Below, piece after piece: positions 7,270 through 10,761 of a stretch of 64,000 bases of DNA. The stretch is taken from positions 20,499-84,498 of the IMG/VR virus record IMGVR_UViG_3300031707_000006, one strand, 5' to 3'. The translations under genes were made by a program, and so were the position numbers. The stretch's first letter is position 1. The number at the start of each line of letters is the position of its first letter. The DNA comes from a virus. The notes under the pieces were generated by a model that was not told the origin of the DNA, did not search any database, and saw nothing but the letters and a program-made list of their open reading frames with translations.

Positions 7270-7579
7270 CTGCATCTACTCCATCTGTACAATACTCTCC
7301 TGTATAAGATTCTGTCACAAATAAAGTGACAGATAATTCATCATCCGGATATTTTTGGAATAACCAACCACCCGTCTCCAGGTCAGCATATTCAGTATCA
7401 TATCTGGTCTCTGTATAAAGAAGGACTAGATGTTCTCTAAGAAAGTCTAGTAGATCCCAACCACCCTCAAACGACCTATAACCAGCCCCAAAATGGCCTT
7501 CGATAAACTCTAATGCTCTACCTACATCTACTAAGTTTAATAATTTTCTAATTTTCAGTTCCCGTTCTGGTGTTAACAT
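7259..7579 (-). CDS. hypothetical protein
   Basis: 106-aa ORF with AAGGAG RBS. Confidence 0.65.
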   Translation of the reverse strand: MLTPERELKIRKLLNLVDVGRALEFIEGHFGAGYRSFEGGWDLLDFLREHLVLLYTETRYDTEYADLETGGWLFQKYPDDELSVTLFVTESYTGEYCTDGVDADEM

Positions 7580-7590
7580 ATTTTCTCCTT

Positions 7591-7776
7591 TTAATCTATT
7601 CTAGATAAATCTAATTGTTTCAATATTTTATTTTTTAGTTCTATTTCTACTTCTTGCAGACTACTGCCTTTTACTAATCTCCAGACCTTTAAACATAATT
7701 TACAATAGATAAATAATTGATTATCTGTAATGGTTTTATTTCTTCCAATACACGAATTACAATGGGGACACTTCAT
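7591..7776 (-). CDS. small zinc-ribbon protein
   Basis: CPHC...CKLC. Confidence 0.6.
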   Translation of the reverse strand: MKCPHCNSCIGRNKTITDNQLFIYCKLCLKVWRLVKGSSLQEVEIELKNKILKQLDLSRID

Positions 7777-7874
7777 TTATCCTTAGGGCCTTTTATACGC
7801 AAGATAATAAATGTAAGTAAATATCCTGATATTCCAAACAATAAACTGATTAAAATTACTCTTATTATTTCCAT
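7773..7874 (-). CDS. 33-aa membrane peptide
   Basis: MEIIRVILISLLFGISGYLLTFIILRIKGPKDK; stop overlaps next start (ATGA). Confidence 0.45.
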   Translation of the reverse strand: MEIIRVILISLLFGISGYLLTFIILRIKGPKDK

Positions 7875-7887
7875 ATTTTCGTCTTAG

Positions 7888-7962
7888 TCGAGGATGTAGA
7901 AATCGAATCTACCTATTGACAATGTATATAAGACATTCGCTTCACCAGCCAGCCCATCCTCG
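7888..7962 (-). tRNA. tRNA-Ile(UAU), divergent
   Basis: Acceptor CGAGGAT/ATCCTCG, anticodon arm AATGT-CTTATAT-ACATT, T arm GTAGA-TTCGATT-TCTAC; followed by CTA, not CCA. Confidence 0.72.
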
Positions 7963-7963
7963 G

Positions 7964-8197
7964 TTAACATTTAAGCCACCCCATAAGATAAGCAGCATTG
8001 AGATTAAAGACGATCTCATCCACTTCTATCGGTTTAAGAGATAAAGGTAAAGACATCATTATTATTTCCTTAAAGAAAATATTATAACAACTTGAACATA
8101 AATTCACACGGTATGGTGCTTTAGGAAATTCTTTTTCATTCATTTCGTATTGCCTATCTAACCTTTCTAAATAATAATCAACTCTTTCCATGTTCAT
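7964..8197 (-). CDS. hypothetical protein
   Basis: 77-aa ORF with GAGG RBS and a CSSC motif. Confidence 0.55.
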   Translation of the reverse strand: MNMERVDYYLERLDRQYEMNEKEFPKAPYRVNLCSSCYNIFFKEIIMMSLPLSLKPIEVDEIVFNLNAAYLMGWLKC

Positions 8198-8216
8198 ATT
8201 AAACCTCTATTAAGAT

Positions 8217-8251
8217 AAAAAGCAGAACCTTTTTGTGTGGGAAGATCCTGC
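8217..8251 (-). terminator. probable intrinsic terminator
   Basis: Minus strand GCAGGATCTT...AAGGTTCTGC stem followed by TTTTT. Confidence 0.55.
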
Positions 8252-8268
8252 GGGAAACCCGAACTAGA

Positions 8269-8739
8269 TTAAAGTTTATAAGTTCTATTTACTGTAGCGG
8301 CAGAAACAACTGCTGCAACTGCTAAGACAATAAATTCTTTGGTAGAATCTAATTGGGCTAAAGTATCCGCGTTTGCGATTGCTACCTGATAAGTTTTATA
8401 CACATGGGGTGAGACTGTTGTAATTGACCAATATTTTTTAGTTTCCTTATCTCTTGATGCAATTACATAATCTTCTACATGTACTGTTTCTTTCATATTC
8501 TCTTCTCCTTTTGGAAAAATACCATACATTAAACCTTCAAATAATTTATTTGTTTCGTCCTCAAATTCATCTTTCCAGAACATATTTTTCTCCTTTTGTT
8601 TCCATTCTCCTAAACCTTTACACGAAAAACCAAGTTGATTCTCTAATCCGTGATCCATTTGAAACTCAAAAATAGTTGACATTTCAAATATTGTATCTTC
8701 TATTGTATCTTCAAATTCTACAGTTACCTTTTTTATCAT
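8269..8739 (-). CDS. hypothetical protein with nested in-frame starts
   Basis: ATG 8739 has an AAGGAG RBS; the track's start at 8778 lies inside the tRNA. Confidence 0.6.
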   Translation of the reverse strand: MIKKVTVEFEDTIEDTIFEMSTIFEFQMDHGLENQLGFSCKGLGEWKQKEKNMFWKDEFEDETNKLFEGLMYGIFPKGEENMKETVHVEDYVIASRDKETKKYWSITTVSPHVYKTYQVAIANADTLAQLDSTKEFIVLAVAAVVSAATVNRTYKL

Positions 8740-8753
8740 AATTACTCCTTTAG

Positions 8754-8827
8754 CACCCTCGGTGAGATTCGGACTCACAACCCCATTTTTAGAAGAAATG
8801 TGCTCTGATCCGTTGAGCTACGAGGGT
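8754..8827 (-). tRNA. tRNA-Arg(UCU)
   Basis: ACCCTCG/CGAGGGT acceptor, GCTC/GAGC D stem, CATTT-CTTCTAA-AAATG anticodon arm, GTGAG-TCCGAAT-CTCAC T arm; CCA not encoded. Confidence 0.88.
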
Positions 8828-8828
8828 A

Positions 8829-9053
8829 GTTTATCCTGGACTGTCTGTGTGAGTTTGATCAGACTCTGGTATATGACCTGACAGCAAGGCTATGCATCTT
8901 TGGATCCAAGCCAATTGGAGATCAATCCGTGCATACTTCCCTCTCACACCAGGATAAATTAGGCAGAACTCCTTAGTTGCAGTCTAAACTGCCCGATCTT
9001 CTTTTTGCATCTGGTGGGAAGGCTAGACCACAGTTTTTAGAGCAAAGATGGAC
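8829..9053 (-). ncRNA. candidate structured non-coding RNA (~225 nt)
   Basis: GC-richer region with no called ORF and nested stems TTTATCCTGG/CCAGGATAAA, TGTGAG/CTCACA, TATGCA/TGCATA, TCCAA/TTGGA, GGCAG/CTGCC; directly downstream of a consensus promoter. Confidence 0.6.
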
Positions 9054-9066
9054 TTGACTTATTTAT

Positions 9067-9094
9067 ATTATACACCAATTTTCTACTTTGTCAA
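9067..9094 (-). promoter_or_regulatory. sigma70/sigmaA-type promoter driving the ncRNA and tRNA-Arg
   Basis: TTGACA-16 nt-TATAAT on minus strand. Confidence 0.75.
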
Positions 9095-9103
9095 GTACCA
9101 ATA

Positions 9104-9179
9104 TAGCGGGAATGTGATTCGAACATCCGATCTCAAGGTTCAAAGCCTCACGTTTTTATCCAGTTAAACTATATGCCTA
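9104..9179 (-). pseudogene. degenerate tRNA-Gln(UUG)
   Basis: D arm TAGTTTAACTGGATAAAAAC, anticodon arm GAGG-CTTTGAA-CCTT and TTCGAATC loop, but T and acceptor stems poorly paired. Confidence 0.5.
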
Positions 9180-9181
9180 TT

Positions 9182-9385
9182 TTAATAAAACACAATATTA
9201 ATTACATATCCCAATTGCTGTAGTGCCTTTACAATAAAACTATTCATAATCACTGTTGAATCACCAGACTTCGTTATCCAAACGGTAACAACCCTGGCAG
9301 CAAAGTCTACAGCAGCGGAGACTCCAAAGAGAAGATTTATCTCCATAAGCAGATCGGATATTTTACTTTTATCACCAATAGCCAT
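9182..9385 (-). CDS. hypothetical protein
   Basis: 67-aa co-oriented ORF. Confidence 0.55.
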   Translation of the reverse strand: MAIGDKSKISDLLMEINLLFGVSAAVDFAARVVTVWITKSGDSTVIMNSFIVKALQQLGYVINIVFY

Positions 9386-9707
9386 TGCGTTCTGCTAACT
9401 CATCTTTATATTCTTTCATTGGTTTAACAGTCAGTTCGTATGAACCAAATGTTATTAACGATTGTAGAACGATTACCGTTGCACCAATACCCCACTGTTT
9501 CCAGTCCGTAGGGATTAAGTATCCTTCTATTTTAAGTAGGGCTAAGGGCAATGCTGTAAATATATTTAAAATTGCTACCATTAATACATAGAGTTTTGGA
9601 GAGAAATCATATTGCCCTCCTAATTTCAATCTAAGTAATGGTTTCACAACGAATTGCAGGATGAACATAGATAATGCACCTGCTGATACAATAACGATCT
9701 CATTCAT
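9372..9707 (-). CDS. three-helix membrane protein (holin-like)
   Basis: Three hydrophobic segments, charged C-terminus, AAGGAG RBS. Confidence 0.5.
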   Translation of the reverse strand: MNEIVIVSAGALSMFILQFVVKPLLRLKLGGQYDFSPKLYVLMVAILNIFTALPLALLKIEGYLIPTDWKQWGIGATVIVLQSLITFGSYELTVKPMKEYKDELAERNGYW

Positions 9708-9718
9708 AATTTTGCTCC

Positions 9719-10018
9719 TTAATCATCTGTTTTCCATTCTTCTTTTATGGAGAATAAATCTCCTTCACATCTTACTAAATAAGTTTGTACATCGGTTAGT
9801 GTCTGTAAATAAGCTGTTTCAGGTACTTCATTAATTGATTCACTGTAAACCATTTTCCTATTTGTAGATAAATCAGGCATGGTTTTTTCTTGCACAATTT
9901 GAGTCATTGCTTTCCAACCACCATCATCTAATTTAGCAAGACTGCTTATAGTTACCTGTTGAAATCTTTTTAATTCTTTAAAGTCCATTGTGAATCCTAT
10001 AGTGGATTTCTTGTCCAT
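9719..10018 (-). CDS. hypothetical protein
   Basis: 99-aa co-oriented ORF. Confidence 0.6.
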   Translation of the reverse strand: MDKKSTIGFTMDFKELKRFQQVTISSLAKLDDGGWKAMTQIVQEKTMPDLSTNRKMVYSESINEVPETAYLQTLTDVQTYLVRCEGDLFSIKEEWKTDD

Positions 10019-10761
10019 TTCGAGAAGGAATAGAGTCGTTTGTGAAGTTCCTCTAAAATTTTTACGTCAGCCCTGTTATGATCTAAAACTTCTAAAATTG
10101 ATTCTGGATCACCATATCTTGCCTTACGCCACGTTGATTTTTTCAAAGGAGTCTTTCCCTCTATTCCCAACCAATCACAAACATTTTCTAGACTTTTCCT
10201 AGATAGTGCTCCTAATTTACTTCTTACAAGATAATATAAATCGAAGTGATATAGTTCTGCATTATACTTACAAACTTCTTTTCCAGATTTAGTTACTATA
10301 ATCTCATCTACAAATCCAGGAAAGTCAAGTCCATAGTGTAAACTTTTAGCCCGTAAGAAACTGGCATCGAAGCGTGTACCAAAATAAGTAACTATAATCT
10401 TATACTTTTTAATCTCTTCAATGCAAGAACGTACTATTCTCTCATCAAATTTTAGATCAAATAGTTCTTTTTTAGTCACACAATCATAAGCGATTTCTCC
10501 GTCTTTTCGTTTAATGCTCCATGATAACATGGTGCTGAAGTCCACAGTTAACCCGTCAGTCTCAATATCTAAATAACCCACGTTCTCTTCGTCCTTTATA
10601 AACCAGGGAATATATTCTTTTTCTTCTTTTGTATCTCCTTTCCTAAAGCAATTTGGATGGTGCTGTATATCTTGTCTGTGTTTGCAACGATTTTGTATTA
10701 TGTATTTCACTTTTTCCTCTATAAATTTTGAATTTTCCTTGTATATATGTTTCTGCTGCAA
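9997..10761 (-). CDS. DEDD/RNase H-like 3'-5' exonuclease (YprB/PolB-exonuclease-like)
   Basis: YLDIETDG, YFGTRFD, HFDLY, SLENVC and HNRADV motifs; true start may be GTG at 10710. Confidence 0.85.
   Translation of the reverse strand: MQQKHIYKENSKFIEEKVKYIIQNRCKHRQDIQHHPNCFRKGDTKEEKEYIPWFIKDEENVGYLDIETDGLTVDFSTMLSWSIKRKDGEIAYDCVTKKELFDLKFDERIVRSCIEEIKKYKIIVTYFGTRFDASFLRAKSLHYGLDFPGFVDEIIVTKSGKEVCKYNAELYHFDLYYLVRSKLGALSRKSLENVCDWLGIEGKTPLKKSTWRKARYGDPESILEVLDHNRADVKILEELHKRLYSFSKWTRNPL

What the first reader, a model, noticed from the sequence alone, without database searches (positions are those of the whole stretch)
8829..9060. Unrecognised ~225-nt structured RNA with its own promoter, abutting tRNA-Arg
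Seen: a consensus TTGACA/TATAAT promoter (9094-9067) points into a GC-richer region with no called ORF. It folds into a 5' stem (ATCTT/AAGAT, TTGC/GCAA, TGGT/ACCA), a GGCAG/CTGCC domain, and a ~130-nt branched rod closed by a 10-bp helix TTTATCCTGG/CCAGGATAAA ending 2 nt before the tRNA. Possible long-range pairings are TCTAAA/TTTAGA and CTTCCC/GGGAAG. I could not match it by eye to 5S, SRP, tmRNA, RNase P or Y RNA. Inference: a new tRNA-linked phage ncRNA, possibly released by RNase P cleavage of the tRNA leader.
Basis: partly seen in the sequence, partly recalled or inferred. Interest (0 to 1): 0.75.

Follow-up and report, generated by a model that had tools for sequence, protein, structure and literature searches.

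The report
Orphan leader insert before phage tRNA-Arg
A GC-rich, non-coding stretch of about 220 bases has been added between a conserved phage tRNA promoter and its tRNA-Arg gene; it is probably transcribed as a long tRNA leader, but nothing yet shows that it is a conserved structured RNA.

Summary
The sequence features are real. There is a perfect TTGACA/16/TATAAT promoter at 9094-9067 (-). After it come 232 non-coding bases with GC 0.45-0.48, against 0.33 for the genome. A 10-13 bp helix closes about 110-130 nt and ends 2 nt before tRNA-Arg(UCU).

- The promoter is not dedicated to this RNA. The same promoter sits 11-35 nt in front of a tRNA in three related phages, so the 232 nt is a lineage-specific insertion into a tRNA leader.
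- The fold is no more stable than shuffles: whole z -0.02, 3' rod z -1.4.
The 5' stems and long-range pairings do not.
- There is no Rfam match.
- No homologue appeared in 280 fetched loci, in IMG/VR or in the GenBank phage set, so covariation cannot be tested.
- One natural variant carries a 26-nt deletion inside the region.
- A near-identical phage appears to lack the tRNA/RNA segment at this position.

Best reading: a leader co-transcribed with tRNA-Arg and released by RNase P, with unproven function. It resembles T4 RNAC/RNAD in location only. Interest is low to moderate. The scan also noted this same stretch in another read of this genome (e1-6132613).

The parts
9067..9094 (-). Sigma-70-type promoter TTGACA-16-TATAAT, homologous to the tRNA-cluster promoters of related phages
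   Evidence: 12 of 12 consensus match. Aligns with the promoters of L017, L230, L029, L237 and L016, with conservation beyond the hexamers.
8829..9060 (-). 232-nt GC-rich non-coding leader (the finding). About 200-220 nt of it is absent from the homologous promoter-tRNA modules of relatives.
   Evidence: Leaders of relatives are 11-35 nt. No Rfam hit. z -0.02.
8961..8994 (-). GGGCAG...CTGCC hairpin (RNA positions 67-100), containing an AAGGAG
   Evidence: Pair probability about 0.58. z -2.13 for the 36-nt piece.
8827..8961 (-). 3' 'rod': a 10-13 bp closing helix (8961-8949 with 8839-8827) and an inner helix TGTGAG/CTCACA (8948-8943 with 8853-8848) around a branched interior
   Evidence: repeat I1, 13 nt, 92% complementary. 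(probabilities 0.8 and 0.58). (z -1.36, 20 of 200 shuffles as good).
8905..8930 (-). 26 nt missing in a natural variant (contig from a sediment run)
   Evidence: X4 record 2 (1130 nt, depth 9.6) bridges 8388-9538 and has no substitution in 8740-9538; the deletion breaks 5 predicted pairs, and 15% of all possible 26-nt deletions in the rod do as well or better.
8753..8827 (-). tRNA-Arg(UCU), no encoded CCA
   Evidence: ARAGORN. Rfam tRNA, 60.4 bits.
9104..9178 (-). Decayed tRNA-Gln(UUG)-like sequence just upstream of the promoter
   Evidence: Rfam tRNA 27.9 bits, below the gathering score of 29. Acceptor and T stems are mismatched. ARAGORN does not call it.
8269..8739 (-). 156-aa gene of unknown function; its RBS follows the tRNA directly, and no terminator lies between
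   Evidence: 0 terminator-like sites in 7500-10500. PHROG 17352, unknown function. No Pfam match.

Best explanation
The 232 nt is a lineage-specific, non-coding expansion of the 5' leader of a conserved promoter-tRNA unit in the tRNA cluster of an uncultured sediment phage.

Proposed mechanism:
1. The host sigma-70 RNA polymerase starts at about 9060.
2. It transcribes the leader, tRNA-Arg(UCU) and the downstream genes as one unit.
3. RNase P cuts at tRNA +1 (8827/8828). This frees a roughly 232-nt 5' fragment whose 3' end is held in a 10-13 bp helix.
4. That fragment may persist for a while, or it may affect tRNA 5' maturation in cis.

It is not a member of any described RNA family, and there is so far no evidence that its fold is under selection.

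Shown: the promoter homology, the insertion relative to relatives, the non-coding nature, the GC enrichment, and the local helices.
Inferred: transcription, RNase P release, and any stability or function.
For: - The promoter is conserved and tRNA-linked. The leader is 35 nt before tRNA-Arg(tct) in L017, 22 nt before tRNA-Arg(tct) in L029 and about 11 nt before tRNA-Ala in L230, where a tRNA also precedes the promoter, as here. The tblastx and blastn hits from the window to relatives cover only the promoter and the tRNA.
- No terminator-like site lies in 7500-10500. The RBS of the next gene follows the tRNA directly.
- The stretch is non-coding. The longest open frame on the transcribed strand is 50 aa. 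The natural 26-nt deletion is not a multiple of 3.
- GC is 0.47-0.48 against a genome value of 0.33.
- Partial structure is present: closing helix p about 0.8, inner helix 0.58, GGCAG hairpin 0.58.
- The genome has few strong -35/-10 promoters. One search lists 10 loose TTGAC-N16-18-TAnnnT matches (9 sites, this one counted twice) in 84.5 kb. Four of the other eight have TTGACA and lie at intergenic operon starts.
- The locus is a variable hot spot. P0001 has the 156-aa gene at 100% identity but an unrelated 89-aa coding extension directly upstream, and that extension is not encoded in this genome. Divergence in the X4 and X7 contigs begins at the same boundary, about 8740.
Against: - Transcription, the transcription start and RNase P release are not observed.
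- A stable helix that reaches position -3 (to +1 in the 13-nt form) could hinder RNase P rather than permit cleavage.
- GC enrichment in an AT-rich phage is what a selected RNA structure would produce, so 'no selected fold' is not shown. It simply could not be tested.
- The X7 contig has 0 changes in 217 nt of the leader, against 7 in 171 nt of the neighbouring ORF. This could reflect constraint. However, X4 shows the same zero divergence over the upstream ORFs as far as 9538, which points to a recombination boundary instead.
Confidence: 0.55

Rival explanations
1. A true new stable ncRNA acting in trans (regulator, decoy or anti-defence RNA). It would be made by RNase P release from the tRNA-Arg precursor, as a functional analogue of T4 RNAC/RNAD.
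For: - GC enrichment.
- A 10-13 bp terminal helix at p about 0.8 that could protect the 3' end.
- Zero substitutions across the leader in two diverged contigs.
- tRNA clusters of related phages hold other RNA genes: a tmRNA in L037 and an unassigned 392-nt GC-rich non-coding gap in L019 with z -2.32.
- T4 encodes two small RNAs of unknown role next to its tRNA-Arg (passages of PMC3014915 and PMC9697503).
Against: - The fold is no better than shuffles.
- Only 5% of bases are confidently paired.
- No homologue in any collection searched, so there is no covariation evidence.
- A 26-nt internal deletion exists in nature and breaks 5 predicted pairs.
- A near-identical phage appears to lack the segment at this position.
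Confidence: 0.2
2. Debris of decayed tRNA-cluster genes (old pseudo-tRNAs or another lost RNA gene), still transcribed but without function.
For: - A decayed tRNA-Gln-like sequence lies just upstream.
- This phage keeps 2 tRNAs, while relatives have up to 14-18 in the same place.
- The length is about three tRNAs, and the GC is intermediate.
- There is no thermodynamic signal, and a deletion is tolerated.
Against: - No residual tRNA signal at E<=10 in the 1-kb Rfam scan, apart from the two tRNA(-like) genes outside the stretch.
- No nhmmer hit to the more than 100 tRNAs in the relatives' loci.
- In three relatives the promoter abuts its tRNA, so nothing need have lain between them.
- Neutral debris in a 33% GC genome should have drifted towards AT.
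Confidence: 0.15
3. A miniature mobile insertion (MITE-like): the 13-nt inverted repeat would be terminal repeats around a 109-nt core.
For: - 12 of 13 complementary arms.
- It lies in a variable locus.
Against: - Single copy in the genome.
- The two arms with a 95-125 nt gap match 0 IMG/VR contigs.
- They match 28 stretches in the GTDB genomes. My estimate for chance is about 30. The taxa are scattered and the interiors unrelated: no nhmmer hit, and 46-66% identity in lenient global alignment.
- No clear target-site duplication.
- The repeat would explain only 135 of the 232 nt.
Confidence: 0.05
4. A small protein gene, for example the 38-aa GTG frame at 8831-8947 (-).
For: An AAGGAG lies at RNA positions 87-92, and there is an open frame of 50 aa from stop to stop.
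Against: - No ATG/GTG/TTG at a working distance from the AAGGAG.
- The natural 26-nt deletion shifts this frame.
- No tblastx match in relatives.
- GC is far above that of the phage's genes.
Confidence: 0.03

Closest known systems
T4 RNAC and RNAD (species 1 and 2 RNAs, genes rnaC and rnaD)
   Same: Small non-coding RNAs inside a phage tRNA cluster, directly next to tRNA-Arg and co-transcribed with tRNAs, with unknown role (passages in PMC3014915, and PMC9697503).
   Different: - In T4 they lie downstream of tRNA-Arg (tRNA-Arg, then rnaD of 119 nt, then rnaC of 139 nt). Here the RNA lies upstream, as a leader.
- There is no sequence similarity: local score 16, against a shuffle mean of 15.7-17.0.
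- T4 rnaC ends in a T-arm-like GGGTTCGAATCCC stem-loop (my reading of the sequence). The window RNA has no tRNA-like part.
Ordinary bacterial and phage pre-tRNA 5' leaders removed by RNase P
   Same: It lies between a promoter and tRNA +1, with no terminator. Relatives have 11-35 nt leaders at the same place.
   Different: At 232 nt it is about 7-20 times longer than the leaders of its relatives. It is GC-rich, and a stable helix comes to within 2 nt of the cleavage site.
Phage-encoded tmRNA in tRNA clusters (as in relative L037)
   Same: A non-tRNA RNA gene embedded among phage tRNAs (L037 10323-10640, 119 bits).
   Different: The window RNA has no tmRNA match at E<=10. ARAGORN's tmRNA search finds nothing in the window or the whole genome.

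Membership tests
Any Rfam 15 family (4227 models) | Score at or above the family's gathering threshold | tested here: not met
   the only hit in the window is tRNA-Arg. (E<=10, 8500-9500): inside 8829-9060 there is only a Dictyostelium snoRNA DdR1 match at 17.4 bits, against a gathering score of 70.
tmRNA | tRNA-like acceptor and T-arm together with a tag reading frame | tested here: not met
   ARAGORN finds no tmRNA. There is no RF00023 match at E<=10. A true phage tmRNA in L037 scores 119 bits with the same tools.
T4 RNAC/RNAD | Sequence similarity to rnaC or rnaD | tested here: not met
   local alignment score 16, against shuffle means of 15.7-17.0.
T4 RNAC/RNAD | Position in a phage tRNA cluster next to tRNA-Arg, co-transcribed | tested here: inconclusive
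   It is adjacent to tRNA-Arg(UCU), but on the 5' side; T4's lie on the 3' side. Co-transcription is inferred only.
pre-tRNA 5' leader | Lies between the promoter/start site and tRNA +1 on the same strand, with no terminator | tested here: met
.
pre-tRNA 5' leader | Removed by RNase P at tRNA +1 | not testable with these tools
   No RNA run holds the stretch. This needs end mapping.
Structured ncRNA (general criterion) | Fold more stable than shuffles, and covariation among homologues | tested here: not met
   Stability is not met. Covariation is untestable: there are 0 homologues in 280 loci and in the collection scans.
MITE-like element | Terminal inverted repeats plus multiple copies and a target-site duplication | tested here: not met
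   The repeats are present. It is a single copy. 0 viral matches and 28 chance-level genomic matches with unrelated interiors.

The most novel reading that the evidence does not exclude
A phage has turned the leader of its tRNA-Arg gene into a separate, stable ncRNA of about 230 nt. RNase P would cut it out, and the 3'-terminal helix would protect it. It would then act in trans during early infection, for example as a decoy or regulator. On this reading it is one of several unrelated orphan RNAs that ride in the tRNA clusters of this phage group (this one, the 392-nt element in L019, and the tmRNA in L037). That would parallel the still unexplained RNAC/RNAD of T4.
Probability: 0.15. Interest if true: 0.6.

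Novelty: new member of a known kind. Interest (0 to 1): 0.3.

Why it matters
If the leader fragment accumulates, it would be a second case, independent of T4, of a small RNA of unknown role tied to a phage tRNA-Arg. It would also be a simple system for asking what such RNAs do.

As the evidence stands, the firm result is more modest. Phage tRNA clusters in this uncultured sediment clade carry a conserved internal promoter, and they are hot spots where non-coding and coding inserts come and go. A consensus promoter followed by a GC-rich gap is therefore not enough to call a new RNA gene.

Tried and rejected
Searches for homologues, all negative for the 232 nt:
- blastn 'distant' against 50,697 GenBank phage records.
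- An exact 23-mer in IMG/VR.
- nhmmer and blastn against 83 loci of relatives, 117 loci fetched by the promoter pattern and 80 metagenome loci.
- A covariance model R1 of the 135-nt rod, searched against 163 loci (1.44 Mb) and the window. It found only itself.
- A 33-mer of the tRNA in IMG/VR.
- The scan's earlier findings, by sequence and by relatives.

Searches for relatives through neighbouring proteins:
- Single-protein searches for the neighbouring genes in IMG/VR found no relative.
- The DNA polymerase gave only relatives at 21-35% identity.
- The first metagenome scan, with the 156-aa gene, found none.
- The closest metagenome contig (L202, 99% identical exonuclease) ends at about window 9161, before the RNA.
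- The closest cultured phages are only 27% identical in the exonuclease.

Expression: no RNA holder is listed among the 10 runs, so nothing can be said about expression.

Ideas tested and dropped:
- The 26-nt deletion as a 'structure-preserving' event. It breaks 5 predicted pairs; 15% of the 104 possible 26-nt deletions in the rod do as well, and its energy ranks 41 of 104.
- GATC or palindrome clustering. There are 4 GATC in the stretch, windows with at least 4 make up about 1% of the genome, GATC is not avoided genome-wide, and palindrome density is at the 43rd percentile.
- Antisense or repeat relations to the rest of the genome. There is nothing beyond 13-nt chance matches.
- A pseudogene. 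There is no long frame on the transcribed strand and no tblastx match.
- A boxA-like TGCTCT near the 5' end. This is my reading against a recalled consensus; it is a 6-mer match only and was not pursued.
- A possible kinship between the inner helix (GTGTGAG/CTCACAC) and the L017 leader hairpin (GTGAGAG/CTCTCAC). It is too short to judge.

Papers: a search for work on phage tRNA-linked leader RNAs listed nothing specific. I saw only search listings, plus the passages cited from PMC3014915 and PMC9697503. No supplements were opened.

Full report
WHAT IS THERE

The window is part of an 84,498-base IMG/VR virus record, estimated 93% complete. Its GC is 0.33, and it has only two tRNA genes, Ile(tat) and Arg(tct).

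On the minus strand the order is as follows:
- a decayed tRNA-Gln-like sequence at 9178-9104 (Rfam tRNA 27.9 bits, below the gathering score of 29, with broken acceptor and T stems);
- a perfect TTGACA-16-TATAAT promoter at 9094-9067;
- 232 nt without a gene at 9060-8829;
- tRNA-Arg(UCU) at 8827-8753;
- directly afterwards, the RBS and ATG of a 156-aa gene.

No terminator-like site lies anywhere in 7500-10500.

The 232 nt has GC 0.45-0.48. Its longest stop-to-stop frame on the transcribed strand is 50 aa. It is single copy in the genome.

CHECK OF THE DESCRIBED FOLD

The 10-bp helix TTTATCCTGG/CCAGGATAAA is real. It extends to 12 of 13 pairs and then reaches tRNA position +1.

I folded the whole primary transcript (leader plus tRNA) and read off ensemble pair probabilities:
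- closing helix: about 0.8;
- the TGTGAG/CTCACA helix just inside it: about 0.58;
- the GGGCAG/CTGCC hairpin: about 0.58;
- the two proposed long-range pairings: 0.00.

Only 5% of leader bases have a partner at p>0.8, against 56% in the tRNA.

Against dinucleotide shuffles:
- the whole RNA has z -0.02, with 99 of 200 shuffles as good;
- the 135-nt rod has z -1.36, with 20 of 200 as good;
- the 5' domain has z -0.05, and the 36-nt hairpin z -2.13.

Inverted repeats as good as the closing helix occur 38 times in the genome, about 0.10 per 232 nt. Shuffled genomes give 11-17.

A few local helices are plausible.

KNOWN FAMILIES

Rfam 15 at gathering thresholds finds only the tRNA. At E<=10 on 8500-9500 there is nothing credible inside the stretch. 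ARAGORN finds no tmRNA.

RELATIVES AND THE PROMOTER

The phage has no close cultured relative. The best exonuclease identity in the GenBank phage set is 27%.

The RNase H-like exonuclease about 1 kb upstream has many uncultured relatives. An alignment of 32 of them (A1) fetched 69 IMG/VR loci and 80 metagenome loci. In these phages a tRNA cluster lies downstream of the exonuclease, on the same strand, with up to 14-18 tRNAs. One cluster holds a true tmRNA (L037, 119 bits).

The only parts of window 8741-9200 that match relatives are the tRNA and the promoter. The promoter is conserved beyond its hexamers, as GGTACTTGACAAA ... TATAATATA. In the relatives it fires straight into a tRNA:
- L017: a 35-nt leader with a 7-bp hairpin, then tRNA-Arg(tct);
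- L029: a 22-nt leader, then tRNA-Arg(tct);
- L230 (the same contig as L022): tRNA-Thr, then the promoter, then about 11 nt, then tRNA-Ala.

This last arrangement (tRNA, promoter, tRNA) is the one seen in the window, except for roughly 200-220 extra bases. The promoter is therefore a tRNA-cluster promoter rather than one dedicated to this RNA. The finding is an insertion into a tRNA leader.

HOMOLOGUES OF THE INSERT

None were found:
- blastn against the GenBank phage set;
- an exact 23-mer in IMG/VR;
- nhmmer and blastn against 83, 117 and 80 loci;
- a covariance model of the rod against 163 loci, 1.44 Mb.

Covariation therefore cannot be tested with what could be fetched. Closer relatives do exist in the protein collection: exonucleases at 69-77% identity, and 156-aa gene variants at 87%.

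POPULATION DATA

Ten sediment-metagenome runs hold the stretch or part of it. I laid contigs from four of them on window 8200-9800.
- X4: a 1130-nt contig bridges 8388-9538. It has 7 substitutions and a 12-nt deletion in the 156-aa gene and none in 8740-9538, but 26 nt (8905-8930) are missing inside the RNA.
- X7: a 465-nt contig bridges 8569-9045. It has 7 substitutions in the gene, one in the tRNA (8802) and none in 217 nt of the leader.

The lack of substitutions could suggest constraint. In X4, however, it extends over the upstream ORFs as well, so a recombination boundary near 8740 is the simpler reading.

The same boundary appears in protein P0001. There the 156-aa gene is 100% identical, but it is fused in frame to an unrelated 89-aa coding extension that this genome does not encode. 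This near-identical phage therefore appears to have a different gene where the window has tRNA-Arg and the insert.

The 26-nt deletion is not a multiple of three, which argues against coding. It is also not notably structure-sparing: it breaks 5 predicted pairs, 15% of the possible deletions do as well, and its energy ranks 41 of 104.

RIVAL ORIGINS

MITE-like element. The two helix arms with a 95-125 nt gap match no IMG/VR contig. They match 28 stretches in the GTDB genomes. This is about the number I expect by chance for 20 fixed bases, and the hits have scattered taxa and unrelated interiors.

Decayed tRNAs. This fits the neighbouring pseudo-tRNA and the shrunken tRNA set. However, there is no residual tRNA signal, and the promoter abuts its tRNA in relatives.

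Small protein. There is no usable start codon, the natural deletion shifts the frame, and there is no tblastx match.

MOST LIKELY MECHANISM

1. The host polymerase starts at about 9060.
2. The leader, tRNA-Arg and the downstream genes are made as one transcript.
3. RNase P cleaves at tRNA +1 and releases the leader. Its 3' end is closed by the 10-13 bp helix.

The promoter homology and the gene layout are shown. Transcription, cleavage and any stability are inferred. Whether the fragment does anything is open. I put about 0.2 on a real trans-acting RNA, and about 0.55 on a co-transcribed leader insert with no function, or only a cis one.

COMPARISON WITH KNOWN SYSTEMS

The nearest parallel is T4. 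Two small RNAs of unknown role, RNAD (119 nt) and RNAC (139 nt), follow its tRNA-Arg directly (passages in PMC3014915, and PMC9697503). The window RNA shares only the neighbourhood. It lies on the other side of the tRNA, has no sequence similarity and has no tRNA-like part. It works like an unusually long pre-tRNA leader and belongs to no described family.

VERDICT

The sequence feature is real. The promoter is real but is shared with the tRNA. The claim of a 'structured RNA' is unproven, and it failed the one test that could be run. Interest 0.3. I file it as a new member of a known kind: non-coding RNA co-transcribed in phage tRNA clusters.

Noticed in passing
window 9104-9178 (-): Decayed tRNA-Gln(UUG)-like sequence. 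The D and anticodon arms are intact, but the acceptor and T stems are mismatched. It scores 27.9 bits against a gathering score of 29, and ARAGORN does not call it. It suggests that this lineage is losing tRNAs.
   Followed up: partly
L019 10491-10882 (+) (same contig as L227 9491-9882): A 392-nt non-coding gap with GC 0.47 (locus 0.37) between tRNA-Gly and tRNA-Asn of a related phage. It has stop codons in all three + strand frames, no Rfam match at E<=5, and MFE -124 against -110.4 kcal/mol for shuffles (z -2.32, 3 of 100 as good). No other copy occurs in the fetched loci. It is a better candidate for an unknown structured RNA than the finding itself.
   Followed up: partly
L037 10323-10640 (+): A phage-encoded tmRNA (Rfam 119 bits; ARAGORN tag AKDFITSLVTKITGAFAPVPQLAFA*) lies inside the tRNA cluster of a related phage, right after tRNA-Ser.
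   Followed up: no
window about 8740 (start of the 156-aa gene, 8269-8739 -): A recombination boundary. P0001 joins a 100%-identical copy of the gene to an unrelated 89-aa upstream coding stretch that this genome does not encode. In the X4 and X7 contigs, divergence begins on the gene side of the same point.
   Followed up: partly
window 9052-9108 (-); L017 9398-9454; L230 6984-7040; L029 11834-11890; L237 1883-1939; L016 9083-9139: A promoter conserved beyond its hexamers (GGTACTTGACAAA ... TATAATATA) recurs inside the tRNA clusters of phages whose exonucleases are only 45-55% identical. Short contig pieces that match only 9060-9097 in three runs (X4, X6, X7) fit this.
   Followed up: partly
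L016 9263-9526 and L017 9677-9964: A small conserved protein gene (87 and 95 aa, both starting MFKV) sits between tRNAs in two related phages. The likeness is my reading of the DNA and was not tested.
   Followed up: no
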